Virus record (IMG/VR): IMGVR_UViG_3300044448_004019
Location: 1-42,993 of that record
Direction: 5' to 3' (one strand)
DNA length: 42,993 nucleotides
Source of the DNA: a virus
Lineage: Duplodnaviria; Caudoviricetes
Made by a program: the position numbers and the translations under genes. The notes beneath the pieces were generated by a model. That model did no database searches. It was not told where the DNA came from and saw only the letters and a program-made list of their open reading frames with translations. Position 1 is the first letter of the stretch; every line of letters begins with the position of its first letter. Shown piece after piece: positions 471 through 35,336 of this stretch.

Positions 471-955
471 TTACTGACGCTACTTACGAGTTCTCAGACA
501 GCCAAACGCTTGCGACGCCAGTCGATCTTGCGAGCGGCACGTTTGGGCATGCCTCGACGAACTACGTCAAGGCTGAGCCATTGAACGACAGCGGCGGGCG
601 AACTCAGTTCGTCCACGTCCAGTTTACTGGCACCTCGGCGCTCGACGCGAACGTCACGGTCGAGCTTCGCGGTTACGACACGGAGCCAAGCTCGAATGCG
701 GCGGCTATGAATACGGACAACTACAAGACAGTTGCGTCGTTCACCGTGCTTGCCGCAGACACCGCTCCGAACAAGGACTTCTACCTGCCCTTGGCTTCGT
801 CGGGCGTCGACACGCTGAGCACGCCTCCGTACAAGTGGTGGCGTGTTGTCTACTTGATCGCTGAAAACGCGGCTGGCGGGGTGAAAGTCTCGACGTCGCT
901 GACGGACGCGATCACGAACGACCCGCGGATCTTCTCCGCGAAGAACAGCACCTGA
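467..955 (+). CDS. Bbp16-like capsid cement/decoration protein
   Basis: N-terminus 'MITDATYEFSDSQTL...ASTNYV' and C-terminal 'YKWWRVVY...GVKVSTSL' fit the Bbp16 family. GTGA overlap with the previous stop codon. Confidence 0.6.
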   Translation: MITDATYEFSDSQTLATPVDLASGTFGHASTNYVKAEPLNDSGGRTQFVHVQFTGTSALDANVTVELRGYDTEPSSNAAAMNTDNYKTVASFTVLAADTAPNKDFYLPLASSGVDTLSTPPYKWWRVVYLIAENAAGGVKVSTSLTDAITNDPRIFSAKNST

Positions 956-1016
956 TTAGTCTCTGCTAATCAGACCGCGGGCTGTCCCAACTTTGGGGCA
1001 GCCCGTCCCAACTTTG
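952..1016 (+). terminator. Two hairpins after the head genes (possible terminator or processing site)
   Basis: CTGATTAG/CTAATCAG (952-973) and GGGCTGTCCCA/TGGGGCAGCCC (979-1004, one U-G pair). The U-tract is weak. Confidence 0.45.
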
Positions 1017-16500: not shown

Positions 16501-19500
16501 AGGTAGGCAAACCGCCGCGAGGCTCCGGGTCAAACCAATCCTACTACCACTTCCAAGACGCAATCTTTCACGTTCGCGTCTACGACGTCTACGACGCGCA
16601 GGGCCGCAAAATGCTCTGGGTGCAAGAGTTCCAAAGCGACTGGGCGCGTGCAGGCTACGCGCAAGGCTTGTTTAAGTACCCAGAAGCAAAGCGCGGCCCA
16701 GACAGCGCTGTGGTTAAAGAATACAACAAGCTGAAAGATCAGCTGGACGTCGCACAGCGGGAGTATTCGGTATACGAAGACGCAGCGGTTAACCGTCGCA
16801 TTGCCCTTTCCAACAACCTAGGCGACTTCTCGTACAACGAAAATCAGGAGTTTAGTCCGGCTGGAAAGATCTTTTTGAGCAACGGGGAATTAGCCGAGTG
16901 GGGTTTGCGGAGACGCGGCACCTACCCCGATTTTACAGGGGGCGAATATGTCGACGTAGTGGTGAGAGCAGACGAAGCCGCAGACATCCGAGGCCGAGGT
17001 GCAGAAGCTGAACTTACTGTCGGCAGAGTTCGCATGCTCACGCGCAGCCACGTAGACGGAAGCAAGGCGTTCGCTCAAAACGCCACCTTGGAGTTTGAGG
17101 TAGCAGGTTTGCACTACGACTTTGCGAACCGCCCCGATATGGCCAACATCGACGTGGTTAAAACTCGGGACTTCTACACCGATCTTGCCGTTGCGCTGCC
17201 TTTCAAGCTTATGACGCTTCTTAAGGCTGAGCAGGTTGCGTTGACTACGTCACGCGACATCTCAGGGAGTCAAACCGCTGACCTCAACCAAGCGATACGC
17301 GACAACTCCGACTTTGTCGACGTCAGCAGCAGCACTGTCGATAAGATGGAGATCAACCAATCAGACGAACTGAGCGGATACCTTAGCGTAACGCGAGTTG
17401 ACCAGTCGCTTGTTGACTCTCGCAAGACGCTAGCTGAGAAAAAGAAGCCTCTTCTAGCGCTTCAGCAGCGCGTTAAGAAAGCGGAGAAGATTGCGACGGG
17501 CCAAGGCTCGATCAACATTGCCCCGCTGGTGACGTCTCGTAACGCGTGGAACGAGTTTGCCGTCAAGCGAGTTACCGCGTTGGCGGTCAGAGAAAACTAC
17601 GCGGGTGTGGTTTTCATCACGGGCGACGAAGGCCAAGTCGCGTCCTACGGCGTCTTGTCAGGGCAGCGAGCGGCGTACGACACAGACTTGCCTAACGCGG
17701 TTAAGAAATCTGTCCTTAAGAAAGGGAAGGCGAAGCTAGAGAAGATCGCGATCCCGTTCCACCGAGACGTTAAAGCCGCTGACGAACGGTCCGAACAGGG
17801 CATTAAGCCGTCTGCCCGAGAGGTCAAGGCAGAGCGCCAAGCGTTGCGCGACGATGCAAACAAGGCGCAAGGCGTTCTTGAACACTCTATGCGGGAGGCG
17901 TTTAAGTTCACTTTGCTCCATGATTTGGTCGACGCTGAAGCGACCGACTTCTGGTCGACGTCTATGTCGGACGCCCAGTTCCAAGCGCTGAAACCCCTGC
18001 TTAAAGACGAGCTTCTGCCGTATGCAGTCTCTGCAATAAGTTCCGGCTACTCGGTGTTTACGGCAAACGACAACGGCACGGTGACCGTTGAGAACTACCC
18101 GCTTTGGTCTCGACGCCAGAGCAACAAGTTCAACGAAAAGATGGCCAAGCATTTGGGGCACCAGCTTAGGCAAATTTCGCCGGTTGATAAGGTCGGCGGG
18201 GCAGTGCCCCCCTTGGACAAAGACGCGCTTTTGCCGGAGGTCTCTGACGAAAACTTTGTGCAAGGGTGGGACGCCAACTCAAACCCAGTGCAAGAGTTCG
18301 CAGGGTTGCAATGGAAGTACGTTGAACTCACAAACCCGACTTACGGGGACATTCTGTACGTGGTGCGCCACCCCAACCACCCGGCGATTGAGTTCTACAT
18401 AGGCACTAACCGAGCGTATAACCGGTTTAGCATCGCCCCGGTGTACGTTCGCCGCAGAGAAGGCCAAGCGGCTCTTGCTAACGGCGACCTGACCGACGTT
18501 GAACTTGCAGACTGGGCGACGGCCATTAAGCGGATTCGAACGGAGTTCGACATTGGCGTTAAGTTCGTGTCGCGGTTTGCCACCAAGCTAAGCGAGATTG
18601 ATTACGCAGAGCCGTCTGTCATTGAACGTCGGCAAGGTCGCCGTTCAGCGGAAACCTCCGTTCTTGCACAACTCAACAACGCTGAAAGGGTAGACGACTG
18701 GCGAGCCTCGCGAGACACAAAGCGAGTTACCGCGGTACCCCGCAGCGCTCTTGCTAACACTCAAAGAAAGGTCGCCGAAACCCGCTCGGTTGAAGACGTA
18801 GACCGGTACTTAGAGGCGTTTGTTGAAGACCCGGTCGCGCGCGAAAAGATAGCGGAACGAATTGCAGACGATCTTTTAGCTGTTCAAGAAGCGACTGCTA
18901 AAAGTGGATGGAACCCCGGCTTCTACATCAACGACAAGATTCGTCAGATGTTTGGGGGCGAACAGCCCTATCTGCAAGAGGGCGAAGAAGACATGGCTCC
19001 GGCGCGCGGGGCGATCAACTTGCGCACCATGGCGGTGTCGCTTGGCCCAAATGCCAGCGTGTCGACGTTCTTCCACGAGTCGGCGCACTACTTCTTTGAG
19101 CTAATGTTGATGATCGCGCAACGGGGAGACGCGACACAAGACATTCTTGATGACCTCGCCGTGCTAGCCGAGTGGGGTAACTACGCCAGCGTCGACCAGC
19201 TACTGCAGGCGACTCGCGCCGAACGCAAAAAGCTGCACGAGGCGTTTGCGTATTCGTTCGAAAAATACCTCGCAAACGGGAAGGTTGAGTCTGCAGACCG
19301 CTCGCTGCTAGGGCTGTTGCGGTCTGTCCGGCGGTGGATCGTCAACGCTTACCGCGACATGGTTGGCAGCACGGTCAACGCGATCTACCAGCGAGAGTTC
19401 GGCGAAGCGATGCCGGAGCTTAGCGAAGAGGTGCAGGCGGTTATGAGCCGTCTGATTCAGACTCAAGAGATGGTGGAGTACGCCAAAAAGGTGCGCTCTC

Positions 19501-22500
19501 TTTCCGAGCTTCTTGAGCTAATCGGCTCTCAAGAAAACCTAAGCCAGCTGAGCAAAGAAGAGCTTGCTCAAGTTCAACAGCTGCTGCTAAACGCAGACTT
19601 TGAAGCCGAAGAACAGTTAGGCGCGATGATGTTGCGTCAGCTGCGCTACTTGAGCAACTTCCGGTCTAGGTTCCTGCGCGACATTCAGAAGCAGACTCGC
19701 GCGGCGCGTAAGCAGGTAGAGGACGACGAGCGGGAGAGACTGCAAAACCAAGGCATTTACAGGCTCCAAAAGTTCTTAACTACCGGCGAGTTTTTGAACG
19801 CTGACGGCGAAGCCGAGCCTACCGGTCTGCCCTCGAACCGCCTGCTGCGCACTGAGCAAACTGCATCTTTGCCGGACCGGATGCTGTCCAACACCGGGGT
19901 TTCGGCGGACGTTCTGGCTCCGGCTTTTGGGTTCCAGTCCGGTGACGATCTAATTGATTTGCTGGCTAGCAGCCAGACGCTTGACGAAGCAGTAGCCGCG
20001 GCAACTGACCGCCGCATGCTCGACGAGTTCAGCGAGTTGACAGACCCGTCAATCGTTGAAGAACGGTTAATCGAAGCCATGAGTGGGCCAGCGCTGCAAA
20101 AGCTACTGGCTACTCAGCTTCGTGCTTTCGATCAGGGGCTACCCGATTCACGCGTGCTGGTTTCCGCCGCGCGAGTTGTAGCCCGCCGCGCGATTGGCGA
20201 CGTAGACGTGGGCGCGCTTCGCCCAATCGACTACTCGCTAGCTGCAGGCCGCGCTCAGCGGCAGGCCGTGGAAGCTAGACGTAAGGGAGATCTGAGCGAG
20301 TACCGTCTAGCCATGCGCCGCGCGTTGTTCCAAAACGCAATGGCTGAAGAAGCCGCGAGTGTCCGTGACGAGTTGCGCAAGCAGACTAAGCGTTTGCGTG
20401 AACGAGTGCAGCGCACTGACAAGAAGCTAGCGAGCCAAGGTCGTTTGACGCCCATCGTCAAGCTAGCGCGCCAACTGTTAGCCGCCTACGGAGAAGCGAC
20501 ACCACCGCCTGAAGTCGCAGAAGATCCGCGCGCTGACGTGCTCGCGCCGTTGCAAGACCCTGATCTGTTTGCGCCTGAGCTTTACTTCGACCTAAGCACG
20601 CTGCGGAACGACGCGCTTGTCGCCGCCAAGCCGTTGAAGGAGATGAAAGTCGACGAAGCGCTAGACGCTCTCGACACTCTTGACGGGTTGTGGTTCCGCA
20701 GCAAGCGTGAACAAGACATCGTGATGGACGGCAAGCGGGTCGCGGTTGACTCGGTGCTAACCGAGATCGAAAAGACGCTCGAAGCGCACGACCGCGCAAC
20801 CCGAAAAGTCGCTGGGTCTCTGACAAAGTCAGAGAAACGAGGCCGGTGGTTGCGCGCGCAGAAGGCGCAGTTCACACGTATGCGCTACGCGCTAAAGGTG
20901 CTCGACCGCGGCAAGGCTGACGGCATCTTTACAAAGGCGATCTGGAGACGCGGCAAGGACGCCGCCAACCAGATGCGTTTAGACGAAACAAAATACCTGA
21001 AGCAAGTCGCCGAGCTTCTCGATTCGCTGGATCTGCCTGAAGGCACAATCACCGCGCGCGAGCTATCAAACGGTACCGACTTCGTCTTCGGCAACGACGG
21101 CACCAGCGGCAAAGCTCAGCTGCTTATGGGTCTGCTGCACAGCGGCAACGAGTCCAACTTGTTCAAGTTTACCGTCGGCTACAACATCGCCAAGTACAAC
21201 CCGCAGACGGGCAAGGCGGAAGGGGTTGAGCGCTGGCTGGAGTATGTGCAGAGCAAGATCGACGACGGCACCATCACCAAGGCTGACATGGACGCCGTCC
21301 AAAAAATCTGGGACTTGATGGAAGAGATCAAGCCGCTGGCGCAACGCGCCCACTTCAGCTTGTTCGGCTACAAGTTTAAGGAGATCCCGGCGCAACCGTT
21401 GACGTTCTCGTTCCCTGGAGTTGGCGAAGTTGTGTATCGCGGCGGCTACGTCCCCGCGCTGACAGACCCCAACCAAGTAGTCGACGCCCGACTGAACAGC
21501 TTTGACGACTCGCTAGAGTTCCAAAAGGCGATGCCTAATGTGCCGCGCGGGTTCACCCAAAACCGTGCCGCGCTCTACGCCGAGCCGCTAGACTTGGATC
21601 TTCGCCGTCTTGGTGTGCATATCCACTCGGTCTTGCTGTTCAGCCACCTTGCGCCTGCAGTCAAGGACATCCGCCGAGTCGTAGAAAACCCGCGCTTTAA
21701 GAGGGCAATCGACGCGGTAGACCCTGGGTTCCGATCGGAAATCTTGGTCCCGTGGATGGAAGCTTTGGCGTCGCAGCGGACGACCATGTCCGGCAAGGAC
21801 GCATGGGGCTGGCTAAACCGCTACAGGTCTCGGGCCGGTGCTGCCACGATGTTCGCCAACATCAAGAACACCGCGCAGAACTTGACCGGCATCGCGGTTG
21901 CGCTAGCAATCATCCCGCGCAAATACATGTTCCCTGCGCTTGGCGACGTGCTACGTGACCGCGAAGGAGCGATGCAGCGCGTCGCTGACCAGTCGGACTA
22001 CATGCGCGACCGCTTCGAAAGCCAGAACATCTACGAAGTTCGTGACCGGCTGGACGCGCTGCTAACTGAGCGTTCCAAAACAGGCAGCGTTGTTGCGTGG
22101 TTTGAGAAAAACGCGTACTGGATTCAGCGGCTAACGCAGGAACCGATCGACGCCGCGGTCTGGATCGCCGCCTACAACAAAGCTATCGCCGACCAAGGCG
22201 CCGGAGTAGACGGCGAAACCGCGCACCGGGAGGCGGTGTACCGCGCCGACGACGCGGTGCAGCAGACGCAAACGTCGAACAACCCCGAGGACTTGTCGGT
22301 ATCCGAGCGGGGTTCTGCAATGGCTAAGCTGTTCTTGCAGTTCCGAGGTTGGTTCATCAACTACGGCAACTTTATCGCGTCTGAAACTCAGATTCGCAGA
22401 ACCGGCGGTGAAGCGGAAGGCAGCCTTGCCGCGCTCTACATGATCGGCATCTTCGTTCCGCTGGTCGGCGCTGAAGTTATCGACTCGCTAGTCGACGGCG

Positions 22501-22922
22501 ACCCCGTTGACGAAGACGAAGACGGCGCAGTCTGGGACGACTTGTTGAGCCGGACGCTGCGAGCGCACATCTCAGCAATCACGGGCGCTGTGCCGATTTG
22601 GGGTGACGCCGCAGCAGTTGGTTTCGCCTCGCTGTTCGACCGGACCAGCTGGAACGCGCGAATGCCGGAGCCACCGACGCTGTCGGTGTTGCGACGCGGC
22701 CTCGTGTCAATCCGCAGCGGCGACTTCGAAGACGGGCGCAAGTTGCGCTCGGTGCTGTCGATGATCGCAACGATTAGCGGCGTCCCAGTTAACAAGTTGC
22801 TGGGACCGGCGATGTCCGGTTACGAGATGGCGACTGGGCAAGCCGACCTTAACGGTCAGTTCGGCTCCGCCGTTGAGATCCCGCGAGCTTTGTTGACGGG
22901 AAGAACTAACCGCCCGCGTTAG
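10515..22922 (+). CDS. Giant internal virion / DNA-ejection polyvalent protein (4135 aa)
   Basis: Uninterrupted 12.4 kb ORF, third in the ejection triplet. Gly/Ala hydrophobic N-terminal part, coiled coil (~12430-13000), HExxH motif (19074-19088), 'YRGGYVP' and a hydrophobic helical C-terminus. Confidence 0.75.
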   Translation: MLDYSQDPQDPQDPQGPVQSPTPKPPREFSQVERLFSLSQTPGLPQNVRDGLRSRAKEKQGTLLSLAVATKQDPQLAAETKQMAERLGVSEQDVANNPTYAKALLQAVEIQAAEQARRDPVLTRYMQDPELAKIAWDDYTTLKSGGVWVGNWAGGQLEAEKGRVGTLWRQNRATPADMEYLAEIEHQLLYELPSGNSWYGGPARLLGQMSSTIPRALRYGVSLAATAGIVGQMGPQAAFPEEVVTMPGAFWTGFYTGMTEGAFKIEGGIAYVDYRRAGYDHETARWSSFVVGALNSAAELVATKYFTVPALKGIGSAAAAGVRKLMQRKIRENTVEAVTAMTAGRALLKFAGGVAGGSASEISTEEFQELTLMVGEEISRAMSDTVGQQMKTRRKSFRGVDRSPLGVGEKGDYDIRYSDDGITVGADLFTAVTGMKTDRPMRLGVDYDENVFAEQYDIALPLSSAFQRGEVMQRLAETAIYTMKGVWLLAGVGPGVQLAIDSHRVKGAKRRHELLLKGDDAAALSKLAERDPNTFERYWADQFQNQDGEGRSDTVYVNKEIVTRLLEGLGMTKEELAVLLPDVARQLDESADVDSDIAIPVSEWLGKKLFNTPLGQAMQDHLRLGGKDSLSFAESAVYNKQVEEQVKALEENRSKLRAARQERRDAEAQAGKIEELDEQIAAVEEDIANLGLNEQDAEKLAEAHVKLEALQEQRAEVEKVASEAEVKDRAAEMRVEALEAQIQTAKAEIADARQAAAQARQDDNLAVAVAQDALADSAQKRLDEAQTELGKARRELAERQTVEDEAQAEEAEQKAPDARQLAQETTRIRQRLLRQLRSTGKFDSSQARIQSGLFAHMLEVMAVRLGMTPEAFEAKYGQFNIVATADGAAAVPMQQTQAAIVQATEVVQVDNTSAFNNEFPEMRVAQIDDNFVYFVVRTEDAQTLLNDQQLDLDAVPLGLGSARTGVRFWVERAKELTGTDKLTVVRVPQALVNAEGSALRYDKAQSDQAQAETFKLDSTLDLGETAREQYNELVAARNAVVQELSETALLSALAQGNSVPVASLSAVQNAGQLGSGGAITLVGTKDSLGPSATSGAAQDAAASRAVSMQSQVSPEGQQFLQDRLEAALTRFVEAGGDVKTLGPEFTEIIYPSLPGNTTTSPLYAFVQANADNHFLVHALLSTPGRAPAIAIADDAMFTRVTRPLGYEFFDQELASYLATEGARILQVLPATARLVEVSAELREQLGAAALRTGRQDLVDSLTAPDAAAVMQAATLRQLVAAAEMYNSLAVNTQTLSRANREKVLLDYMGRYISNQLQLNGESVEATPENILEAAVRLDRSASGATGPSVINGRSNTISLTAARDQLGPSLYGQRWHFGVRAKSLEFQRFEVWREALTNGNRQAWGEPALRALFAVTQQDSPTVETAYRALEAHGFTDVAPDVVQETLQIAELVRANPFDFFESQLDQSVGIDRFQIAMVSPTVDQVTRRALRDRGLRVFVYGARRVVDTTKALNTLDDGSVLRQDQDPQSDIGPLYSRLTRAIQTTEGKKAKSAAQWRQAANAWRNKGAVGETELDYSGFEELMTIMEAEGIKATPAELAEAFTTRKADTSVAEAAGRAGAGEIRLRELDLLQSPILKYESDGYAAVSVSTPRSVPHPETGRYEIVAVSSETVDTSNIHRGYSAFSVTPDGLITAIARLQLRDQKGAFPVSAEDVAILSQQQDIFTDPLRLDQSDAVTRFSQGDPVVVSAALFAELGQDVQGAAYVLVDRQSVLSEDNLAMSDQQIAQEFFNLLSQRAQQDDLEWFALPTSLDASRISIAAETYKLDWTADERAYAVNRGETLEESPFEGQVFATKEEANSALAQKYPPTASMSVGANTTAGQRGLTISIADGQWLMVENETGDEIATSEEYPGVRLADPTWAANAGTGYADETDVIRDMVGEAMVPWLRANAKKLSSLQPYTQWQGITLAAKTSGYANPENYREFVWVFDTRAKKVGKPPRGSGSNQSYYHFQDAIFHVRVYDVYDAQGRKMLWVQEFQSDWARAGYAQGLFKYPEAKRGPDSAVVKEYNKLKDQLDVAQREYSVYEDAAVNRRIALSNNLGDFSYNENQEFSPAGKIFLSNGELAEWGLRRRGTYPDFTGGEYVDVVVRADEAADIRGRGAEAELTVGRVRMLTRSHVDGSKAFAQNATLEFEVAGLHYDFANRPDMANIDVVKTRDFYTDLAVALPFKLMTLLKAEQVALTTSRDISGSQTADLNQAIRDNSDFVDVSSSTVDKMEINQSDELSGYLSVTRVDQSLVDSRKTLAEKKKPLLALQQRVKKAEKIATGQGSINIAPLVTSRNAWNEFAVKRVTALAVRENYAGVVFITGDEGQVASYGVLSGQRAAYDTDLPNAVKKSVLKKGKAKLEKIAIPFHRDVKAADERSEQGIKPSAREVKAERQALRDDANKAQGVLEHSMREAFKFTLLHDLVDAEATDFWSTSMSDAQFQALKPLLKDELLPYAVSAISSGYSVFTANDNGTVTVENYPLWSRRQSNKFNEKMAKHLGHQLRQISPVDKVGGAVPPLDKDALLPEVSDENFVQGWDANSNPVQEFAGLQWKYVELTNPTYGDILYVVRHPNHPAIEFYIGTNRAYNRFSIAPVYVRRREGQAALANGDLTDVELADWATAIKRIRTEFDIGVKFVSRFATKLSEIDYAEPSVIERRQGRRSAETSVLAQLNNAERVDDWRASRDTKRVTAVPRSALANTQRKVAETRSVEDVDRYLEAFVEDPVAREKIAERIADDLLAVQEATAKSGWNPGFYINDKIRQMFGGEQPYLQEGEEDMAPARGAINLRTMAVSLGPNASVSTFFHESAHYFFELMLMIAQRGDATQDILDDLAVLAEWGNYASVDQLLQATRAERKKLHEAFAYSFEKYLANGKVESADRSLLGLLRSVRRWIVNAYRDMVGSTVNAIYQREFGEAMPELSEEVQAVMSRLIQTQEMVEYAKKVRSLSELLELIGSQENLSQLSKEELAQVQQLLLNADFEAEEQLGAMMLRQLRYLSNFRSRFLRDIQKQTRAARKQVEDDERERLQNQGIYRLQKFLTTGEFLNADGEAEPTGLPSNRLLRTEQTASLPDRMLSNTGVSADVLAPAFGFQSGDDLIDLLASSQTLDEAVAAATDRRMLDEFSELTDPSIVEERLIEAMSGPALQKLLATQLRAFDQGLPDSRVLVSAARVVARRAIGDVDVGALRPIDYSLAAGRAQRQAVEARRKGDLSEYRLAMRRALFQNAMAEEAASVRDELRKQTKRLRERVQRTDKKLASQGRLTPIVKLARQLLAAYGEATPPPEVAEDPRADVLAPLQDPDLFAPELYFDLSTLRNDALVAAKPLKEMKVDEALDALDTLDGLWFRSKREQDIVMDGKRVAVDSVLTEIEKTLEAHDRATRKVAGSLTKSEKRGRWLRAQKAQFTRMRYALKVLDRGKADGIFTKAIWRRGKDAANQMRLDETKYLKQVAELLDSLDLPEGTITARELSNGTDFVFGNDGTSGKAQLLMGLLHSGNESNLFKFTVGYNIAKYNPQTGKAEGVERWLEYVQSKIDDGTITKADMDAVQKIWDLMEEIKPLAQRAHFSLFGYKFKEIPAQPLTFSFPGVGEVVYRGGYVPALTDPNQVVDARLNSFDDSLEFQKAMPNVPRGFTQNRAALYAEPLDLDLRRLGVHIHSVLLFSHLAPAVKDIRRVVENPRFKRAIDAVDPGFRSEILVPWMEALASQRTTMSGKDAWGWLNRYRSRAGAATMFANIKNTAQNLTGIAVALAIIPRKYMFPALGDVLRDREGAMQRVADQSDYMRDRFESQNIYEVRDRLDALLTERSKTGSVVAWFEKNAYWIQRLTQEPIDAAVWIAAYNKAIADQGAGVDGETAHREAVYRADDAVQQTQTSNNPEDLSVSERGSAMAKLFLQFRGWFINYGNFIASETQIRRTGGEAEGSLAALYMIGIFVPLVGAEVIDSLVDGDPVDEDEDGAVWDDLLSRTLRAHISAITGAVPIWGDAAAVGFASLFDRTSWNARMPEPPTLSVLRRGLVSIRSGDFEDGRKLRSVLSMIATISGVPVNKLLGPAMSGYEMATGQADLNGQFGSAVEIPRALLTGRTNRPR

Positions 22923-23035
22923 CGGGCTAGCGCGCAGTAGGCGATTAGCCAGACGGGAAGAGACAAGATCAGCCCGTTCACCAGACCTTTAAAGAAACTG
23001 CGAGCGCGAGGGTCAGGCGGGTACACGTCAGTCAT
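22919..23035 (-). CDS. Small membrane protein (38 aa, MTDVYPPDPRARSFFKGLVNGLILSLPVWLIAYCALAR)
   Basis: Hand-translated. The ATG overlaps the end of the 23028-23321 gene, the ORF fills the gap exactly, and it has one hydrophobic segment. Confidence 0.55.
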   Translation of the reverse strand: MTDVYPPDPRARSFFKGLVNGLILSLPVWLIAYCALAR

Positions 23036-23321
23036 CTAAGAGCTTGCGCCGCTCGCGGTTTTGCGCTCGACGGCGTGACACGCGAATAGCTTCGGCAACA
23101 ACGTCGGCGGGCTGGTCAAGACCCTTAGCCAGCCGGTGAACCGTCCAAGAGCGGACGCGGCTTGGCTCCGTCTTGCCCGCCATAAGCTCAAACAAGTGCG
23201 ACCGATTAACGCAACACGTCGTTGCGATCTCGTCCATAGTGCGATCAGGGTCTTCGTCAAGGCGGTCTTTGCGTTGAGCTTGCTTAACTAGCGCACGCAG
23301 ATCCGGGTTAGCAGATGTCAT
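23028..23321 (-). CDS. XRE/Cro-like helix-turn-helix protein
   Basis: 'TMDEIATTCCVNRSHLFELMAGKTEP...TVHRLAKGLD' fits the HTH-XRE pattern. Confidence 0.7.
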   Translation of the reverse strand: MTSANPDLRALVKQAQRKDRLDEDPDRTMDEIATTCCVNRSHLFELMAGKTEPSRVRSWTVHRLAKGLDQPADVVAEAIRVSRRRAQNRERRKLLDD

Positions 23322-26233: not shown

Positions 26234-27409
26234 TTAGTTACTGGCCTCAGAGAAGACGTCAGCGCCGGGCAAAGCCGGGCGTCGGTCAGAAACCGGCACC
26301 AGCTTTTCGCCAGTAACCGGACGGTTGCACAGCCCGTCAATCACGGGCTTGTGTTTCGTGCCGCCCAGAGCTTTCTGGGCTTGTGCGGGGCTGATCATCG
26401 ACGTGACCGTAGGATCAACACCCGCGTCGCGAAGCGCGTTCTGCGCTTCGACTTCGTCGTTCCAACGACGGTTGCCGATGGTAGCGACCAGTTTGTATCC
26501 GTCAACAACGCGCCCTGCTTTTGCTTCGCTAGCAGCGTGTTGCTCAACTGCGTCGAGCCACTTCCGCACCAGCGGTGCGGCGTCAAGGACTGCCCGCATC
26601 CGCTCAGGGTCAAGCGTTACCGGTGCTGGCGGCTGCGTAGGGGAGTCGAGGTCACCGCTAGGGAAGACCTCTTGAGCGCTTTGCAACGCATGCTCGCGCA
26701 GCGCGGGGCAATGCGGCTTAGCAGGGCAGAAGGTGCAGTGGTCGCCCGGCTGCAGCCGAGCTTGCGGCTCCAGAGCGGCTTTGATCCGCACGGTCAGTTC
26801 TTGCTCAACCCACGCTTCGAACTCGTCCATGCGCATCGTCCACGCTTGGTGACGCCCACGCACACAGCTTTCGTCATCTGAACGCGCGTTGACGCGCGGC
26901 TGCACGATGTGAAACTTAACCCGGTTAAACTTGCGCGAGAACGCAGGCGCATCTTCTGGCGGGTCAGCCAGCAGCGCCGCAGCGTAGACCATCAGCTGAC
27001 GGTTAGCCGTCGCGTCGACCAGCGTGCGCCCAAACTTCAAGTCAAAGACGTGCAGCGTGTCCGCCGTCGCCATCGCGTAGTCGACAGTGCCCCAGCAGTC
27101 GTTGTTGAACTCTACGCGGTGCTCAACTACCGAGTCGTCGGCGAGCATCTCGTGCAAGCGCAAGATGTCCAGGTACGCCTGGAGGTCTTGCGCCATCTCA
27201 AGGTCAACGGTGAACTCACCGTTGGTGTCCCCGACGTAGCTGATCGCGTCCAGCCCGTTGACCAGAGCTTGCTCAGCAATCATGTGCGCGAAAGAACCTT
27301 CGCGCGCAGCTGGGCTAGACTCGTCCGGGCAATCCTTGCTCAGAGCTACTGAGCCGGGACAGACGAACCAGCGGTTAGCGGCGCTTGGCGCCAAAGACGA
27401 ATGGCTCAT
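26234..27409 (-). CDS. DUF2800 Cas4-like PD-(D/E)XK exonuclease
   Basis: 'HSSLAPSAANRWFVCPGS', 'EGSFAH', 'GTVD', 'DLKFG', 'QLMVYA' and 'HCTFCPAKPHC'. Confidence 0.9.
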   Translation of the reverse strand: MSHSSLAPSAANRWFVCPGSVALSKDCPDESSPAAREGSFAHMIAEQALVNGLDAISYVGDTNGEFTVDLEMAQDLQAYLDILRLHEMLADDSVVEHRVEFNNDCWGTVDYAMATADTLHVFDLKFGRTLVDATANRQLMVYAAALLADPPEDAPAFSRKFNRVKFHIVQPRVNARSDDESCVRGRHQAWTMRMDEFEAWVEQELTVRIKAALEPQARLQPGDHCTFCPAKPHCPALREHALQSAQEVFPSGDLDSPTQPPAPVTLDPERMRAVLDAAPLVRKWLDAVEQHAASEAKAGRVVDGYKLVATIGNRRWNDEVEAQNALRDAGVDPTVTSMISPAQAQKALGGTKHKPVIDGLCNRPVTGEKLVPVSDRRPALPGADVFSEASN

Positions 27410-27512
27410 GGCTAACGCTCCTTCTACGTCGGGGAATTAAAGCAGATGCCGGGACGACCAAGATGGCCATCCCGACGGTAATGCCTGCTGTCACCAGCAG
27501 ATCGTAGATCAC
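27375..27512 (-). CDS. Small membrane protein (45 aa, MIYDLLVTAGITVGMAILVVPASALIPRRRRS...)
   Basis: Hand-translated. GTGA overlap with the upstream stop; a hydrophobic segment is followed by RRRR. Confidence 0.45.
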   Translation of the reverse strand: MIYDLLVTAGITVGMAILVVPASALIPRRRRSVSHEPFVFGAKRR

Positions 27513-27919
27513 CCCAGCTGAGCCTGGAGTGAATCGGCGATCGGGTTGACCGCCTCGTCCTTGATCTCAGAGAACTTGGTGACGCCCACTTGCTGGAACA
27601 CCGCGCGGACTGGCTCGTCACCAAGCTGGTCAAGAGCTTGCGCGATCAACTCGCGCAGTTCGTCGCGGGTCATGCGAGGCGTCTGCTTTGCAGCTTCGGC
27701 TGCGACTTCGGCCTTAGCCTCTGGCGTAGCCATTGACTGCTCTGGGTTCTTGCGCGGGCGACCGCGCTTCTTCTTCGGCTTAGCCTCAGCTTCGGCTTCG
27801 GGCTTGGACCGCTTAACGCTCTTCGACTCAACAGTGACGTCGTCGCTGTGCGACTTAAGGAAGTCGGCAAGCGCGGGCAGCACAGCAGAGTCGAGCGAAA
27901 GAGTGATGTTGATGTTCAT
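27509..27919 (-). CDS. Hypothetical protein with AT-hook-like motif (136 aa)
   Basis: SD AGGAG before ATG 27919 and 'KKKRGRPRK'. The helical C-terminus 'VFQQVGVTKFSEIK' is of the type often seen upstream of DUF2800 genes. Confidence 0.7.
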   Translation of the reverse strand: MNINITLSLDSAVLPALADFLKSHSDDVTVESKSVKRSKPEAEAEAKPKKKRGRPRKNPEQSMATPEAKAEVAAEAAKQTPRMTRDELRELIAQALDQLGDEPVRAVFQQVGVTKFSEIKDEAVNPIADSLQAQLG

Positions 27920-27940: not shown

Positions 27941-28033
27941 GCGGGCAGGGGCTGCGGCTATCGGGGAAGTAGGGTGCTGGGTCAGCTTGGCTGGATTCCT
28001 GGTCGCCAAGCGGGGCCTGCAGCGCCTGCCCGC
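27941..28033 (-). ncRNA. Putative structured RNA B / 5' leader
   Basis: GCGGGCAGG-C-GCTGC-A-GGC pairs with GCC-GCAGC-C-CCTGCCCGC; inner stem GCTTGGC/GCCAAGC. Confidence 0.45.
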
Positions 28034-28047
28034 TGTGTGCTGAGTTG

Positions 28048-28076
28048 GTTGTAGTTGGCTTGAGTCGGAAACGCAA
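28048..28076 (-). promoter_or_regulatory. Putative sigma70-type promoter
   Basis: TTGCGT-N17-TACAAC, just upstream of structured element B. Confidence 0.4.
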
Positions 28077-28079
28077 GCG

Positions 28080-28370
28080 TCAATTCCGTGACGCTTGCTC
28101 TTTTTCCCACTCTTCACGTTTGACGTGGATAGCTGAAACCAGCCGCTCAGTGAACAGCTTTGCGATCTCCTCTACCGACATCACGTCGTAGTGCTCCAGC
28201 ACTACGGCGATTTCAGCGACTAGGTCAGTCGCTACGACTCCGAGCAGCGACGCTCGGGAGCCAGGGTCGTCAACGGTTGGCTTCATTTTTACCATGAAGT
28301 CTTTGGCGAACTCCTGGGCGAGTTGGTTACCCAGGCCCAGCTGGGCCTGGATATCCTTGTCATCAAGCAT
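28080..28370 (-). CDS. Hypothetical protein (96 aa)
   Basis: ATG 28370 overlaps the end of the upstream gene; helical, protein-like sequence. Confidence 0.65.
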   Translation of the reverse strand: MLDDKDIQAQLGLGNQLAQEFAKDFMVKMKPTVDDPGSRASLLGVVATDLVAEIAVVLEHYDVMSVEEIAKLFTERLVSAIHVKREEWEKEQASRN

Positions 28371-28903: not shown

Positions 28904-29173
28904 TCAGATGGCCAGCGCGTTAGCGATGGCCTGGGAACGCGTTTTACCCAGACCTTCTGGGTAGAACCACACGCCGCTGGCGTCAACGCCAGTGACAACT
29001 TGAGCGCGCCAGCGAGACGCTGGCGGCACTTTACGGTAGGGGTCGACAAGGTCGTCGTAGTTGATGTGCCAAACGACAACCCACTGGCCGTCCTTGCGGA
29101 TCAACGACCCGCCGGGGCGGGTCTCAACGCCGCTCGCAAGGACTTGCTCTTTCTGCTTATCGGTAAGTCGCAT
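28904..29173 (-). CDS. Hypothetical protein (89 aa)
   Basis: SD GGAGG before ATG 29173 (MRLTDKQKEQ...). Confidence 0.7.
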   Translation of the reverse strand: MRLTDKQKEQVLASGVETRPGGSLIRKDGQWVVVWHINYDDLVDPYRKVPPASRWRAQVVTGVDASGVWFYPEGLGKTRSQAIANALAI

Positions 29174-29211
29174 GGTAGCCTCCGGTGTCAACCTGAAAAG
29201 TAAGAGAGAAA

Positions 29212-29296
29212 GGGTGGCTGCGATGCTCGCTTTAACTAAGTGGGCTTCTACGGAAGCCAGAGCACAACTAAGGCTGCCCTTAGAAAGCAGCCACCC
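29212..29296 (-). ncRNA. Putative structured RNA C
   Basis: 10-bp closing stem GGGTGGCTGC/GCAGCCACCC; inner CTAAGG/CCTTAG, TGCTC/GAGCA and GGCTTC/GAAGCC. Confidence 0.55.
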
Positions 29297-29305
29297 GAAA
29301 GAGAA

Positions 29306-29415
29306 GCACGTCAGCCGCCGACACGAGGTCACGGCGCGATGGAATAACGGAGTCTCACGCGGACGGCCTCAGTTCGGCCACCCGATCGCGCTACCCGTAT
29401 CGACGGCTAACGTGC
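29306..29415 (-). ncRNA. Putative structured RNA D
   Basis: 20-bp closing helix with three U-G wobbles on the minus strand; inner GCGCGAT/ATCGCGC and GGCC/GGCC stems. Starts 7 nt after a -10 box. Confidence 0.6.
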
Positions 29416-29422
29416 AGAGGAC

Positions 29423-29465
29423 AGACTACAGCAGACTTCGACCGACGTCAACAGTCTGCTGTAGT
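29423..29465 (-). promoter_or_regulatory. Sigma70-type promoter embedded in a 13-bp inverted repeat
   Basis: TTGACG-N17-TAGTCT; arms ACTACAGCAGACT (29425-29437) and AGTCTGCTGTAGT (29453-29465); A-tract upstream. Confidence 0.65.
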
Positions 29466-29470
29466 TTTTT

Positions 29471-30085
29471 TTACGCCACGTTCTCCACGGTGATGCGGAT
29501 TTCGCTGTCTCCCCAAGTCCACCGGGCTTTGAGAGTGTCGCGTTCCCATTCGCGGATGATGTGCGGGGTCCAATCCTCGCTGCATTCAGCGGCCATAAAG
29601 CCGTCGACTACACTCATGGCGGTGCCCCACTCGCGGCAGATCTGCATCGTGTGATCTGGAGGGACTAGACCGTCCTCTACCAGATGCACGACGTAGACTT
29701 CGTCGTCTTTTAGCTCACGCTTTGGCATCGATTTCCTCCTGTTCAGCTGGCGCATGTGTACGCCTAGTACCCAACGAGTGATGAAGTTCCAGCGGTGCGT
29801 CGTGTTGGTGTACGCAACCGCTGCTTGCATGATGCTGACCACCAAGGCCAGCGCCACGAACCATGCTTGAGTCAGCCAAGAGCCGCTAGACGCGGCTGCA
29901 GCTAACGCCAAGGTCCACGCAACAACGAACGCGAAGATCGCCCAGATCGCCGTCTTGAAGCCGAGCTTGCGCATCAGCATCTTGCCGAACGGGTTGGTCT
30001 CCGAGTCAGCTGAGCGAACGTGCTGCTGGGTAGACCAGCAGTCTCCGAACTTGGTCAGCACGACCAGGGCTGCAGCAGCCCACAC
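29471..30085 (-). CDS. Membrane protein (DUF5658-like N-terminal part) in frame with a separately initiated 85-aa protein (29471-29728)
   Basis: 'GDCWST...ETNPF' plus transmembrane segments; internal SD AGGAGG before ATG 29728. Confidence 0.55.
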   Translation of the reverse strand: MWAAAALVVLTKFGDCWSTQQHVRSADSETNPFGKMLMRKLGFKTAIWAIFAFVVAWTLALAAAASSGSWLTQAWFVALALVVSIMQAAVAYTNTTHRWNFITRWVLGVHMRQLNRRKSMPKRELKDDEVYVVHLVEDGLVPPDHTMQICREWGTAMSVVDGFMAAECSEDWTPHIIREWERDTLKARWTWGDSEIRITVENVA

Positions 30086-30364: not shown

Positions 30365-30382
30365 GCCGCCCCTAGGGGCGGC
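30365..30382. promoter_or_regulatory. 18-bp perfect palindrome/hairpin between early genes
   Basis: GCCGCCCCTAGGGGCGGC, intergenic. Confidence 0.45.
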
Positions 30383-30390
30383 GTTAGTAA

Positions 30391-30558: not shown

Positions 30559-30586
30559 CGGTCGTCTCCAGGTTGGGCCGCTACCC

Positions 30587-31477
30587 TCAGAGGGCAGCGG
30601 CGGCTTCGGCACGCGCGACGAGGTCGCGCAGGATGCGTCGGTTTTGGTTGGCACCGACGCCGACAAGGTTGGCCTCTTCGCGAGTAGCGTCGCGGCCACG
30701 GTGGTGCGACAACCAGTTGGTCGCCGCTTGGTAAGCACCCCACAAGCTGCCTGGGTCAGCCCCAGCGCCCGTGTGGTAGAGACGCTCGACCTTGTCAGCC
30801 TGATTCTGGCTGCGCGTCGTGCGCTCGTTGTTCTCGTCGCGTGGGAACCACTCGTCGAGGATGGCTTGGAAGCCTCGGTCGTTCAGCTTGGAGTCAGCCA
30901 GACGCTGCAGCATCGGAAGCTGCTTCTCGAAGCTGTCGAACTGCTGACGCAGAGCGATGACGGCTTCTTGGTTGCGCTGCGTGATCGACGGCGTGTGACG
31001 CATGCGCGACACTGCTTGGTTGTCCAAGCGGACCATGCCGTTAGTGCAGATGAGCACTTCGTCGGCACTGCCGATGGTCCGAGCGGCGCTACCGTCGAAC
31101 GAGTCGTAGCTGAAGATGCGCTGGCGAATCACTTCGCCGACCTTGCGCTGCGTCTTGATCTCGGCTTCTTTGCCGGTCTCAGCGATCACAGCGATCTTGG
31201 CGCCGCCCTTCCAGGCGAACGCACGCAGGTTGCGCTCCTTGATGTGGCCGCTCTCCAGCAGGTGCTCGAAGACCTCGACGGTCTCGGACGGCTGGATCAC
31301 AGTCTGCTTGCCGCCGACCATGCCGATGGCTTCACCAGTGTCGGTGCGCCACGCGATGCGACCAAGGTTAGGGTCGACCGTGCGGACGCCGTTAGGGCCG
31401 TTGTCAACGCGGTAGGCGGCAGTGCCGAGTTCGACGTCGTAGCGCAGCTGAGCAAAAGGGTCAGTAGTGTGGGTCAT
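30587..31477 (-). CDS. DUF932-family protein
   Basis: 'WRTDTGEAIGMVG', 'SFDGS', 'ICTNG', 'RHT' and 'GSLWGAYQAATNWLSH'; SD GGAG before ATG 31477. Confidence 0.85.
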   Translation of the reverse strand: MTHTTDPFAQLRYDVELGTAAYRVDNGPNGVRTVDPNLGRIAWRTDTGEAIGMVGGKQTVIQPSETVEVFEHLLESGHIKERNLRAFAWKGGAKIAVIAETGKEAEIKTQRKVGEVIRQRIFSYDSFDGSAARTIGSADEVLICTNGMVRLDNQAVSRMRHTPSITQRNQEAVIALRQQFDSFEKQLPMLQRLADSKLNDRGFQAILDEWFPRDENNERTTRSQNQADKVERLYHTGAGADPGSLWGAYQAATNWLSHHRGRDATREEANLVGVGANQNRRILRDLVARAEAAAAL

Positions 31478-31534: not shown

Positions 31535-31567
31535 AACATAACCCGACATCGACCGACGTCAACCGAC
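31535..31567 (-). promoter_or_regulatory. Sigma70-type early promoter
   Basis: TTGACG-N16-TATGTT; shares the 15-mer GTTGACGTCGGTCGA and a downstream GTCCTC with the 29.4 kb promoter. Confidence 0.6.
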
Positions 31568-33043: not shown

Positions 33044-35191
33044 GTGATGACCACAATCAACAGTAGCCCAACACCCGACGATGCACAACACTTTGTGCCT
33101 CTGATCTTGCGCAACAGTGCTCGCTGGTGCCGCTGGAACCTACGCAAGAATCGCCAGGGCAGTTGGACGAAAGTGCCAGACTGCCGCACGCTCGACGAGG
33201 CGTCGCAACGCAAGTTTGAGGAAGTTGCGGGTCCGACGCAGCGCGCACCCGACAAGTTTTCGGGCATTGGTTTCATCACAACCAACGGGGTCAAGACGCC
33301 GCGCGGCTACCTGATCGCGCTCGACTACGACAACTGCCGCGACCCAGAGACCGGGCAACTTAGCCCGTGGGCGCGCGATGCGCTTGCGGCGTTTGGTAAC
33401 TCGTTCACGGAAGCAAGCCCTTCAGGCTTTGGGCTGCGCCAGTGGGTGCTTGTCGACAAGCTGCCTCGCCGCAACATCAGCACGGTGCTGCCCATCGACG
33501 CTGACCCCGTGCCGGGCTGCGCGAAGCGCGTCGAGGTCCAGTTGTTTGGGGTCAACCAAGCAGGCGGGTTTGTCACAGTCACGGGCAAGCACCTTCCCGG
33601 CACGAACAAGGACGTCACGCGCGTCGACTTGGACGATCTGTTTCGGCATTTCGACTGGGTGCCAGACGAGAAAGCGCGACTCGATAGTCTGCCGACTAGC
33701 TCCGAGCCGGTGCCGTTTCGGAACGACATCGACCAGTTTGTAGCTGAGCAGCCGGACGGCAAAGCGCTTCTTGAAGGCCGATGGCAGTACGAGGACTCAC
33801 CCTACGCGTCGGCGAGCGACGCCTTCTGGGCGTTGGAAGTCATGGTGGCTAAGGCGTGCTTGGGGCACGGCGACGTGGCGCTGCAATACTTGCTGAACCA
33901 CACGGCGTGGGGCCGCGGGGACATCGAGAACAGCCTCGACCCTGGGCGCTACGGGCGCGAAGCGTGGGTAACCGCGGACCTGACGCGCGCGTTTGCCTAC
34001 TTGCAGGAGCAAGAAGACCAAGTTGTCGAGGCGTTTGGTGAGTTAGAAGAGCCGGAGCTAGACGCTCAAGTCGAGGCATCTAAAGAGGCTGCGGTAAAGG
34101 TGTCGCCGCTCTACAGCATCGAGCCGGTCCAGCCAGACTGGTCGACCATCCCGCCGCCGCGCGAGTATCTGCTGAACCGACCAGATGGTGTGGGGCTGCT
34201 GCCTCGCAGCAAGGTCGGGCTGTTCTCGGCTGCGGGCGGGACGGGCAAGACCACGGCGCTGATCCAGCTAGCCGTGAGCGTGGCTACCGGGCGCCCTTGG
34301 CTCGGGCACTTCCGCCTGGGCGAGACGTGCGGCAAGCGCGTGCTCTTCCTGATGGGAGAAGAAGACGCTGACGAGGCCGCACGCAAGCTCTATTTCGCCT
34401 GTGATAACATGGGGCTGGACGCCATCGAGATGGAAGCCGTGCGCCAGCGGGTGCTCTGCGTGCCGCTCGCAGGCCACGCGCTGCCGCTGCTAGATTCGGA
34501 GGCGAGCAGCACGGGTCACAGCACGGGGCTAGCTCAGCGTCTGGACGACGGCGAAGACTGGGGGCTGGTGGTGGTTGACCCGATCAGCCGCTTCGCTGGC
34601 GTTAACGTCGAGTCTGACAACATCTTAGCTACGCGCTTCGTGCAGGAGTTGGAGCGGTTTACGCGCGCTCCAGGCAACCCGACCGTGCTGGGCGTGGGCC
34701 ACACAAGCAAGCAAGCCAGGGCGCAAGGCTCAGCTGAGCAGCGAGGCGTGACGGGCTTGATCGACGCAGTGCGGTGGGGTGCTTCTCTACTGACGGTCGA
34801 TGACGGGCGTGTCCGGTTTGAAATGCAGAAAAACAACCTCGCCCCGCCGATGGACGAGCCGGTCATGCTGGTCCGCCAGGAGGGCGGCTACCTGACTGCT
34901 GAAGACGAGGTCCAGCGTCAGCAGCGTGAAGAGGCCGAGCGGGCGGCAGAGCAGGCGGACGACGCTCGCCAAGCGGATCGTCGAGAAGAACGAGTCAGCG
35001 GGCTGGTGGAGAGCGTGGTGACGGCGGTGGCCGACCATCCTGGCAAGACGGCGAACGAACTGGTGTCGCTCGTGGCGGGCAGGCGGTCGGACGTGCTGGA
35101 TGCGGTGCGACGGGCGGCCGCAGCACATCGAATCGTGTCGTCTGCTGACGGTCGCAGGACCATCTACCGGGTGGAGGATCTCCTTGGCTAA
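33044..35191 (+). CDS. Primase-helicase (AEP/prim-pol-like N-terminus, RepA/AAA_25 SF4-like helicase C-terminus)
   Basis: 'GIGF', 'LDYDNC', 'EASPSGFGLR' and 'FVTVTG'; Walker A 'AAGGTGKT', Walker B 'LVVVDP' and 'HTSK'. Confidence 0.88.
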   Translation: MMTTINSSPTPDDAQHFVPLILRNSARWCRWNLRKNRQGSWTKVPDCRTLDEASQRKFEEVAGPTQRAPDKFSGIGFITTNGVKTPRGYLIALDYDNCRDPETGQLSPWARDALAAFGNSFTEASPSGFGLRQWVLVDKLPRRNISTVLPIDADPVPGCAKRVEVQLFGVNQAGGFVTVTGKHLPGTNKDVTRVDLDDLFRHFDWVPDEKARLDSLPTSSEPVPFRNDIDQFVAEQPDGKALLEGRWQYEDSPYASASDAFWALEVMVAKACLGHGDVALQYLLNHTAWGRGDIENSLDPGRYGREAWVTADLTRAFAYLQEQEDQVVEAFGELEEPELDAQVEASKEAAVKVSPLYSIEPVQPDWSTIPPPREYLLNRPDGVGLLPRSKVGLFSAAGGTGKTTALIQLAVSVATGRPWLGHFRLGETCGKRVLFLMGEEDADEAARKLYFACDNMGLDAIEMEAVRQRVLCVPLAGHALPLLDSEASSTGHSTGLAQRLDDGEDWGLVVVDPISRFAGVNVESDNILATRFVQELERFTRAPGNPTVLGVGHTSKQARAQGSAEQRGVTGLIDAVRWGASLLTVDDGRVRFEMQKNNLAPPMDEPVMLVRQEGGYLTAEDEVQRQQREEAERAAEQADDARQADRREERVSGLVESVVTAVADHPGKTANELVSLVAGRRSDVLDAVRRAAAAHRIVSSADGRRTIYRVEDLLG

Positions 35192-35193
35192 GT

Positions 35194-35336
35194 GGTTCCC
35201 AGATTTGAGCGGGAACCTGTTCGGGAACCTCGGGAACCTGTCCCCCGCAACCTTCCCCCGAAGTGGTTCCCGACCACTAGGGGGTGCGGGGGTTTTTTCA
35301 TATATATGGTTAGCAGGTGGGAACCAGTTGGGAACT
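35194..35336. repeat. GGGAACC repeat cluster with AT-rich patch; putative replication origin
   Basis: Seven copies of GGGAAC(C) in both orientations, plus TTTTTTCATATATAT (35293-35307), right after the primase-helicase gene. Confidence 0.6.

What the first reader, a model, noticed from the sequence alone, without database searches (positions are those of the whole stretch)
29212..29415. Promoter-driven tandem pair of structured RNAs
Seen: directly after a strong promoter, GCACGTTAGCCGTCGATACG pairs with CGTGTCGGCGGCTGACGTGC over 20 bp. All three non-Watson-Crick positions are U-G wobbles on the minus strand (C-A mismatches on plus), which points to selection at the RNA level. The helix encloses further stems. 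After a pyrimidine linker (TTCTCTTTC) a second 85-nt multi-branch domain follows, then another pyrimidine tract. I do not recognise either domain as a known family. Inference: early-expressed small RNAs cut from one precursor (the long helix is a candidate RNase III site), possibly decoys or antitoxin mimics against host defence.
Basis: partly seen in the sequence, partly recalled or inferred. Interest (0 to 1): 0.8.

Follow-up and report, generated by a model that had tools for sequence, protein, structure and literature searches.

The report
End-clamped leader RNA of marine phage
A gene-free stretch behind a predicted early promoter of an uncultured marine phage holds the longest RNA helix in its genome and a second clamped fold, and likely acts as a nuclease-resistant leader that also sheds stable small RNAs; it matches no catalogued RNA family, but no transcript, no diverged copy and no anti-defence role could be shown.

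Summary
On the minus strand, 29415-29306 closes with 22 uninterrupted pairs (four G-U, no mismatch), the longest helix in this 43-kb BPP-1-like podovirus; 0 of 20 shuffled genomes reached 22. A 9-nt pyrimidine linker, an 85-nt second domain and a pyrimidine tract follow. The flanking genes are real and the overlapping ORFs are unsupported. The promoter motif occurs twice in the genome, and its predicted +1 is the first base of the helix. Rfam has no match.

Limits: no diverged homologue was found, so there is no covariation. Domain 1's interior folds no better than chance, domain 2's strand is ambiguous, and a centred RNase III cut meets E. coli antideterminants. Nothing supports decoy or antitoxin activity.

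Best reading (0.45): an end-clamped leader of the p89-p170-p137 early operon that also yields nested stable RNAs of about 120 and 210 nt, working like the 5'UTR-derived ncRNAs of Pseudomonas phages and mycobacteriophage Pleft. Two related phages share a separate uncatalogued clamped motif in the same region, so such RNAs recur in the clade.

The parts
29471..29728 (-). upstream gene p85 (85 aa, unknown function); its stop codon abuts the promoter A-tract
   Evidence: 3 homologous clusters, 58-88% identity, 83-86 aa
29425..29465 (.). 13-bp perfect inverted repeat (arms 29425-29437, 29453-29465) laid over the promoter, followed by T8 on the plus strand; predicted plus-strand terminator and/or operator
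   Evidence: plus-strand fold z -5.3
29423..29451 (-). predicted sigma-70-type early promoter P1: -35 TTGACG (29451-29446), 17-nt spacer, -10 TAGTCT (29428-29423), A-tract upstream; predicted +1 at G29415
   Evidence: 18-nt motif occurs twice in the window (29451, 31562), 0 of 100 shuffles give two; shared discriminator and like sites in relatives; activity not tested
29306..29415 (-). domain 1: 110-nt RNA clamped by a 22-bp helix (29415-29394 with 29327-29306), enclosing a predicted 7-bp stem, a 9-bp hairpin and a 19-nt one-sided bulge
   Evidence: interior alone not significant
29297..29305 (-). 9-nt U-rich linker, predicted single-stranded; candidate 3' end of a ~119-nt RNA
29212..29296 (-). 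domain 2: 85-nt three-way fold closed by 10 Watson-Crick pairs; an early local 9-pair hairpin (29292-29272) is its alternative fold, 9.6 kcal/mol weaker
   Evidence: strand ambiguous
29195..29211 (-). second pyrimidine tract; candidate 3' end of a ~210-nt RNA and/or translation enhancer of p89
28904..29183 (-). Shine-Dalgarno GGAGG (29183-29179) and gene p89 (ATG 29173, 89 aa, unknown function), first gene of the predicted P1 operon p89-p170-p137
   Evidence: 3 clusters, all 8 members 88-89 aa and starting at this Met

Best explanation
This is a non-coding, strongly folded stretch that is likely the 5' leader of an early phage operon, predicted to start at the first base of its 22-bp helix and likely to shed stable small RNAs. 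Inferred steps: host RNA polymerase starts at G29415; the first 22 nt pair with nt 89-110, burying the 5' end against 5'-end-dependent decay; the U-rich tract behind each clamp acts as a partial stop or trimming point, giving nested 5'-coterminal RNAs of about 120 nt (domain 1) and about 210 nt (domains 1+2) beside the read-through mRNA for p89, p170 and p137. The likeliest effect is in cis: a long-lived transcript with a capped dose of three small early proteins. Shown: the sequence, the helix and its rarity, the gene-free interval, the repeated promoter motif. Inferred: transcription, start site, 3' ends, stability, function.
For: 22-bp helix longest in the genome, 0 of 20 shuffles; four G-U and no A-C on minus, fold 12 kcal/mol better than on plus. 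Predicted +1 coincides with helix base 1; four of six other promoter-like sites in this phage and three relatives are also followed within about 10 nt by a hairpin, the two L027 sites are not (sites chosen by eye). Both flanking genes have homologues of matching length. The plus-strand 197-aa ORF has no non-self homologue among 139 candidates and is frameshifted by a 1-nt insertion at 29466 in 3 of 4 laid runs. Both clamps are followed directly by U-rich tracts, and neither touches the p89 Shine-Dalgarno. Precedent: 34 of 42 5'UTR terminators in six Pseudomonas phages give a short (<250 nt) 5'-coterminal RNA beside a long one (PMC10914365, section 20 read); L5 Pleft gives four species of 100-500 nt with a common 5' end (PMC5712189, passages).
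Against: No diverged homologue, so no covariation: one identical IMG/VR contig for domain 1, no hit in 50,697 phage records, no non-self hit below E 2 for a domain 1 model in 760 kb of held loci. Domain 1 interior not significant. Promoter below the scan threshold; the spacer motif alone is at chance level in L027 (13 of 100 shuffles). Domain 2 folds better on plus and has a UNCG-type loop (motif recalled) there. Clamps enclosing 65 nt are not classical terminator hairpins. The only variant inside the element (29239) is synonymous in the 142-aa upstream extension of p89, so it does not exclude that frame. The region is structure-rich overall.
Confidence: 0.45

Rival explanations
1. Only an mRNA leader: an enlarged form of the 5'-terminal hairpin found at other early promoters of this clade, stabilising the p89 operon mRNA, with no discrete small RNA.
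For: Four of six other promoter-like sites begin with a small hairpin; pyrimidine-rich stretches precede several minus-strand genes (0.67-0.80 for six of twelve); most intergenic gaps of the early region fold strongly.
Against: A 22-bp clamp around 66 nt plus a second clamped domain is far more than a 5' stabiliser needs; both clamps end in U-rich tracts.
Confidence: 0.25
2. Trans-acting RNAs: the 22-bp helix would bind a host dsRNA-binding protein such as RNase III without being cut, or the RNAs would titrate a defence protein.
For: Early promoter position; helix length equals the idealised 22-bp RNase III substrate (PMC3867540, passages); a C-G pair at proximal-box position 4 of a centred site is of the kind that allows binding but blocks cleavage (PMC1540722, passages; box spacing partly recalled); Pleft RNAs are toxic to the host.
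Against: No repeat structure, no Rfam likeness; the other half-site carries a binding antideterminant; the exposed 19-nt strand has no better target among 28 of the phage's own start regions than shuffles (167 of 500 as good); host unknown; the element is absent from five complete relatives by BLAST.
Confidence: 0.12
3. T7-style RNase III processing stem: the helix is cut on both strands, releasing the inner module and setting the 5' end of the downstream mRNA.
For: 22 uninterrupted pairs, above the ~11-bp minimum; two off-centre registers (pairs 6-9 and 15-18) have A-U pairs at proximal-box positions 2 and 4.
Against: Pairs 9-12 and 14-15 are all G-C/C-G, antideterminants for a centred cut; neither off-centre register has the preferred distal box; rules come from E. 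coli and the host is unknown; cutting a stem that begins at +1 removes the protection it offers.
Confidence: 0.1
4. Domain 2 (or both domains) works on the plus strand as part of an antisense RNA that ends at the hairpin plus T8 at 29423-29472, or the repeats act as DNA.
For: Domain 2 folds at -44.4 on plus vs -41.8 on minus and shows a UNCG-type loop on plus; the 29239 variant turns a plus-strand U-A pair into U-G; the promoter repeat reads as a good plus-strand terminator.
Against: Domain 1 clearly prefers minus as RNA and slightly as DNA (-32.7 vs -29.7); no plus-strand promoter was found upstream; one transition is uninformative.
Confidence: 0.05
5. One of the domains is a self-cleaving ribozyme of a new class that processes the early transcript.
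For: Self-cleaving ribozymes are often near phage genes (PMC4604425 and PMC6765202, passages); domain 2's alternative fold could form a loop pseudoknot (by inspection).
Against: No ribozyme family at E up to 10; the third stem that defines pistol is missing; the 29239 variant breaks a pair of that pseudoknot; no conserved core known.
Confidence: 0.03

Closest known systems
Non-coding RNAs from the Pleft early promoter of Cluster A mycobacteriophages L5, D29, StarStuff (PMC5712189; passages read)
   Same: ORF-free region directly behind an early lytic promoter with operator-like repeats; nested RNAs with a common 5' end are what the anatomy here predicts.
   Different: No sequence match; 240-nt leader against about 500 nt; podovirus of unknown host; abundance, stability and toxicity are shown for Pleft and untested here.
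5'UTR-derived ncRNA candidates of virulent Pseudomonas phages, made by premature termination (PMC10914365; section 20 and passages read)
   Same: Short structured RNA sharing its 5' end with a longer mRNA; under 250 nt; intergenic.
   Different: Those are mapped by transcript data and conserved within their genera; here the ends are predicted and the closing elements are long-range clamps, not simple hairpins.
RNase III processing stems such as T7 R1.1 (PMC3867540, PMC1540722; passages read)
   Same: About two helical turns of dsRNA in an early phage transcript.
   Different: Begins at the predicted +1 instead of lying between genes; G-C-rich centre carries E. coli antideterminants.
acr-aca operon leaders with promoter inverted repeats and 5'UTR RNA motifs bound by HTH proteins (PMC13551039; abstract and outline only)
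   Same: Inverted repeat over the promoter, structured 5'UTR, small genes of unknown function downstream, an HTH gene in the genome.
   Different: The HTH gene lies 5 kb away in another position (23028-23321); the structures do not cover the ribosome binding site; no family match for the downstream genes.

Membership tests
Any Rfam 15 family (riboswitches, ribozymes, SRP, 6S, Y RNA, tmRNA, tRNA) | covariance-model score at gathering threshold | tested here: not met
   0 hits in the window; at E up to 10 five weak hits, none covering a domain, best E 0.12 on the promoter hairpin; ARAGORN 0
Promoter-proximal / 5'UTR-derived phage ncRNA (Pleft-like) | early promoter directly upstream | tested here: inconclusive
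   motif repeated twice in the genome, like sites in relatives, but 8 of 12 consensus, not listed; activity untested
Promoter-proximal / 5'UTR-derived phage ncRNA (Pleft-like) | no conserved reading frame | tested here: met
   p89 homologues start at 29173; plus ORF orphan and frameshifted in a variant
Promoter-proximal / 5'UTR-derived phage ncRNA (Pleft-like) | abundant short transcripts sharing the 5' end | not testable with these tools
   needs RNA from infected cells
Pleft RNA itself (sequence family) | sequence homology | tested here: not met
   no blastn match at E up to 10 in 50,697 phage records
RNase III substrate | helix of at least 11 bp, ideally 22 | tested here: met
   22 uninterrupted pairs
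RNase III substrate | no G-C/C-G pair at proximal-box positions 2 and 4, preferred distal box (E. coli rules) | tested here: inconclusive
   centred cut fails; two off-centre registers pass the proximal box but not the distal box (box spacing partly recalled; host unknown)
Pistol ribozyme | stems P1, P2, P3 with pseudoknot from the P1 loop and a 2-nt junction between P3 and P2 | tested here: not met
   domain 2's alternative fold has no P3 at that place; no Rfam hit
Translational riboswitch / attenuator of p89 | alternative fold that covers the Shine-Dalgarno sequence | tested here: not met
   neither domain pairs with 29183-29179 in the full-leader fold
Transcription attenuator | terminator hairpin with U tract that competes with another fold | tested here: inconclusive
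   early hairpin 29292-29272 with a 5-of-8 U tail is displaced by the clamp; no ligand or trigger known
Clamped motif shared by relatives L004 and L027 (found here) | significant score against its models | tested here: not met
   domains 1 and 2 not hit at E up to 10 by models R1 and R3 or by nhmmer; pairwise test for domain 2 marginal, 28 of 2000 shuffles, uncorrected
acr-aca operon leader | co-encoded Aca regulator and Acr gene in the operon | tested here: inconclusive
   no HTH in the P1 operon; no family match for p89, p170, p137; no dedicated Acr library searched

The most novel reading that the evidence does not exclude
A clade of marine BPP-1-like podoviruses makes several unrelated, end-clamped small RNAs from its early region (domains 1 and 2 and element E3 here, the L004/L027 motif in relatives) that act in trans during takeover, domain 1 as an uncut 22-bp dsRNA decoy for RNase III or an RNA-sensing defence protein.
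Probability: 0.12. Interest if true: 0.8.

Novelty: new member of a known kind. Interest (0 to 1): 0.42.

Why it matters
Abundant RNAs behind phage early promoters are known from a few model phages and almost none has a function. A compact, two-module example with a sharply defined predicted start, in a phage seen in many seawater data sets, is an easy construct for transcription, stability and pull-down tests, and the clamp could serve as an mRNA stabiliser. If the RNAs act in trans they would add to the very short list of phage RNAs that counter host functions. As it stands it is one uncatalogued sequence without covariation or expression data.

Tried and rejected
Homologue searches that gave nothing new: exact 20-mer in IMG/VR, 1 contig, identical; domain 2 clamp pattern, 2 contigs, one identical and one chance match in a GC-rich coding stretch; blastn in phages (none) and plasmids (2 short hits, E 0.2-0.8); p89 and p85 by tblastn in phages (none); p89 alignment in IMG/VR (only the identical contig), so the 78-79% relatives of p89 could not be read as DNA; DUF932 alignment in metagenome contigs (13 loci) and polymerase alignment in viral and genome contigs (36 and 1 loci) brought relatives without the element. 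The whole-record RNA search missed a motif known to be in G001, so its blanks show little.

Expression: no RNA holder listed (20 of 24 rows hold the stretch, none on record as RNA); this is no evidence either way. Four laid DNA runs showed one substitution in 204 nt, too little for covariation; X14 and X16 look like one data set, and depths were under 6. A second laying was not obtained, so further strain variation is unexamined.

Homology of domain 2 to the L004/L027 motif looked good by eye but failed both models and nhmmer; model R3 rests on a poorly aligned middle. A pattern scan for more members of that motif gave 17 hits, 3 of them the known copies and 14 without the closing helix. Antisense targeting of own start regions: chance level. 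Possible pairing of the domain 1 loop with domain 2: only -3.7 kcal/mol. The TTGACA at 29191 has no usable -10. A genome-wide count of clamp-plus-U-tract units was not completed. In the supplements of Fremin et al. (PMC10690425) six 14-nt terms were not found, but 3 of 6 held files and three large files were not searched, so prior listing there is not excluded. Paper searches found no description of this element; they cover open-access text only.

Full report
Setting. The window is a whole 42,993-nt phage record. PHROG matches give a T7-type tail, portal, terminase and a 4,135-aa virion protein on plus, and PolA, ssDNA-binding protein, exonuclease, SNF2 helicase and DUF932 on minus, with a divergent primase. 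The portal is about 50% identical to those of BPP-1 and small Caulobacter podoviruses. Laid runs holding the stretch are labelled marine or seawater. The host is unknown. The finding lies in the minus-strand block of small genes between DUF932 and the exonuclease, which I take to be the early region (inference from gene content).

Observation. The two 20-mers pair as stated, with U-G at pairs 7, 13 and 17; the helix continues to 22 uninterrupted pairs. It is the longest helix of span under 250 nt on either strand, and 0 of 20 block-shuffled genomes reached 22. Domain 1 folds at z -6.4 on minus and 12 kcal/mol worse on plus, and is the most stable of 5,360 windows (grid aligned to it). All of that significance comes from the clamp: the 64-nt interior is at z -0.78. 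Domain 2 is real as a fold (z -4.7 minus, -5.3 plus) but does not tell its strand. Background structure is raised across 26-31 kb, including inside the exonuclease gene.

Non-coding status. p85 upstream and p89 downstream each have three clusters of homologues of matching length; all eight listed p89 members begin at the Met of ATG 29173, behind a GGAGG. The 142-aa extension from GTG 29332 has no Shine-Dalgarno. The plus-strand 197-aa ORF has no non-self homologue and is frameshifted by an insertion at 29466 in runs X14, X16 and X18 but not X19 (X14 and X16 are probably one data set, depths under 6). The single variant inside the element is synonymous in the extension frame, which tells against nothing and for nothing.

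Promoter. An 18-nt motif starting with TTGACG occurs at 29451 and 31562, both intergenic, both on minus with an A-tract upstream; 0 of 100 shuffles give two. The two share the six bases after the -10. With a 17-nt spacer the -10 is TAGTCT and the first purine at the usual distance is G29415, base 1 of the helix. Five like sites picked by eye in relatives L004, L006 and L027 have similar -10 boxes; counting the second window site, four of six are followed within about 10 nt by a hairpin, and the two L027 sites are not. The site scores 8 of 12 and was not listed by the consensus scan, and the spacer motif alone is at chance level in L027. A perfect 13-bp inverted repeat covers the promoter and is followed by T8 on plus; it may be a terminator, an operator, or both.

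Relatives. No diverged copy of either domain was found, so there is no covariation for the finding itself. The syntenic region of two relatives does hold a shared motif: L027 6939-7006 and L004 7678-7747, a 9-10-bp clamp around a small multibranch core followed by a U-rich tract. A model of the L027 copy finds the other as its best non-self hit in 100 kb (E 0.005), pairwise score 0 of 1000 shuffles, with 3 of 20 pairs changed on both sides and none broken, though on two sequences this is not significant (72 of 500). In L027 it lies between orthologues of p137 and p136, the position of a third clamped element in the window, E3 (28033-27941, z -3.2). Domains 1 and 2 and E3 do not score significantly against it (E3 E 4.1). 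Four other relatives (L028, L029, L030, L032) show no such gap by inspection. So clamp-plus-U-tract units recur in part of the clade, but their common descent is not shown.

Mechanism. A helix that pairs the predicted first nucleotide with a segment just before a U-rich tract is the layout of many stable small RNAs (own knowledge). I therefore read the element as a leader that protects the 5' end and, by partial termination or trimming at the two tracts, yields RNAs of about 120 and 210 nt beside the mRNA. Domain 2 first forms a local 9-pair hairpin with a weak U tail and later refolds into the clamp, which offers a third possible stop. Neither domain touches the p89 ribosome site. RNase III cleavage is possible by length but a centred cut meets G-C/C-G antideterminants by E. 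coli rules. No sign of antisense targeting within the phage and no likeness to antitoxin or CRISPR repeats was found.

Comparison and verdict. No Rfam family matches. It works most like the Pleft RNAs of Cluster A mycobacteriophages and the 5'UTR-derived RNAs of Pseudomonas phages, without being homologous to them; the defining feature of that class, an accumulating short transcript, could not be tested. Unread supplements of PMC10690425 may list the motif. Verdict: a real, uncatalogued structured leader, new member of a known kind, interest 0.42; the decoy reading remains open at about 0.12.

Noticed in passing
L027:6939-7006 (+) and L004:7678-7747 (+): Uncatalogued ~70-nt clamped multibranch motif shared by two related phages, with compensatory changes in the closing helix, a shared core and a U-rich tail; no Rfam hit, no further member in IMG/VR by exact pattern. 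In L027 a new promoter-like site follows it, so it may be a 3' element or free RNA.
   Followed up: partly
window 27941-28033 (-): Third clamped element E3 (9-bp closing helix, pyrimidine tail) before gene p136, at the same position as the L027 motif; z -3.2; homology not significant.
   Followed up: partly
window 28073-28098: 10-bp inverted repeat containing a TTGACG on minus and followed by a T run on plus, at the end of p137; same layout as the repeat over promoter P1.
   Followed up: partly
window 31535-31562 (-): Second copy of the promoter motif (P2), driving DUF932 and four small genes; small hairpins sit in the gaps at 30575-30600 and 30367-30384.
   Followed up: partly
window 35190-35300 (+): Intergenic stretch after the primase with several GGGAACC/GGTTCCC repeats folding into two long hairpins and a T run; candidate replication origin or terminator.
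   Followed up: no
window 920-1010 (+): Three consecutive perfect hairpins around the end of the gene at 955, z -5.6.
   Followed up: no
window 27410-27545 (-) and 27113-27360: Strong folds in the gap before the exonuclease and inside its 5' coding part.
   Followed up: no
window 23028-23321 (-): 97-aa weak HTH_3 protein after the polymerase, 49% identical in L027; candidate binder of the promoter repeats.
   Followed up: no
window 10515-22922 (+): 4,135-aa virion protein with no Pfam match and only unknown-function PHROG matches.
   Followed up: no
L032:5440-5910: GC-rich array of short repeats with a GGCTCGG core after the helicase gene.
   Followed up: no
L027:5538-5580: Promoter-like site followed 7 nt after the -10 by an ATG, suggesting a leaderless mRNA.
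   Followed up: no
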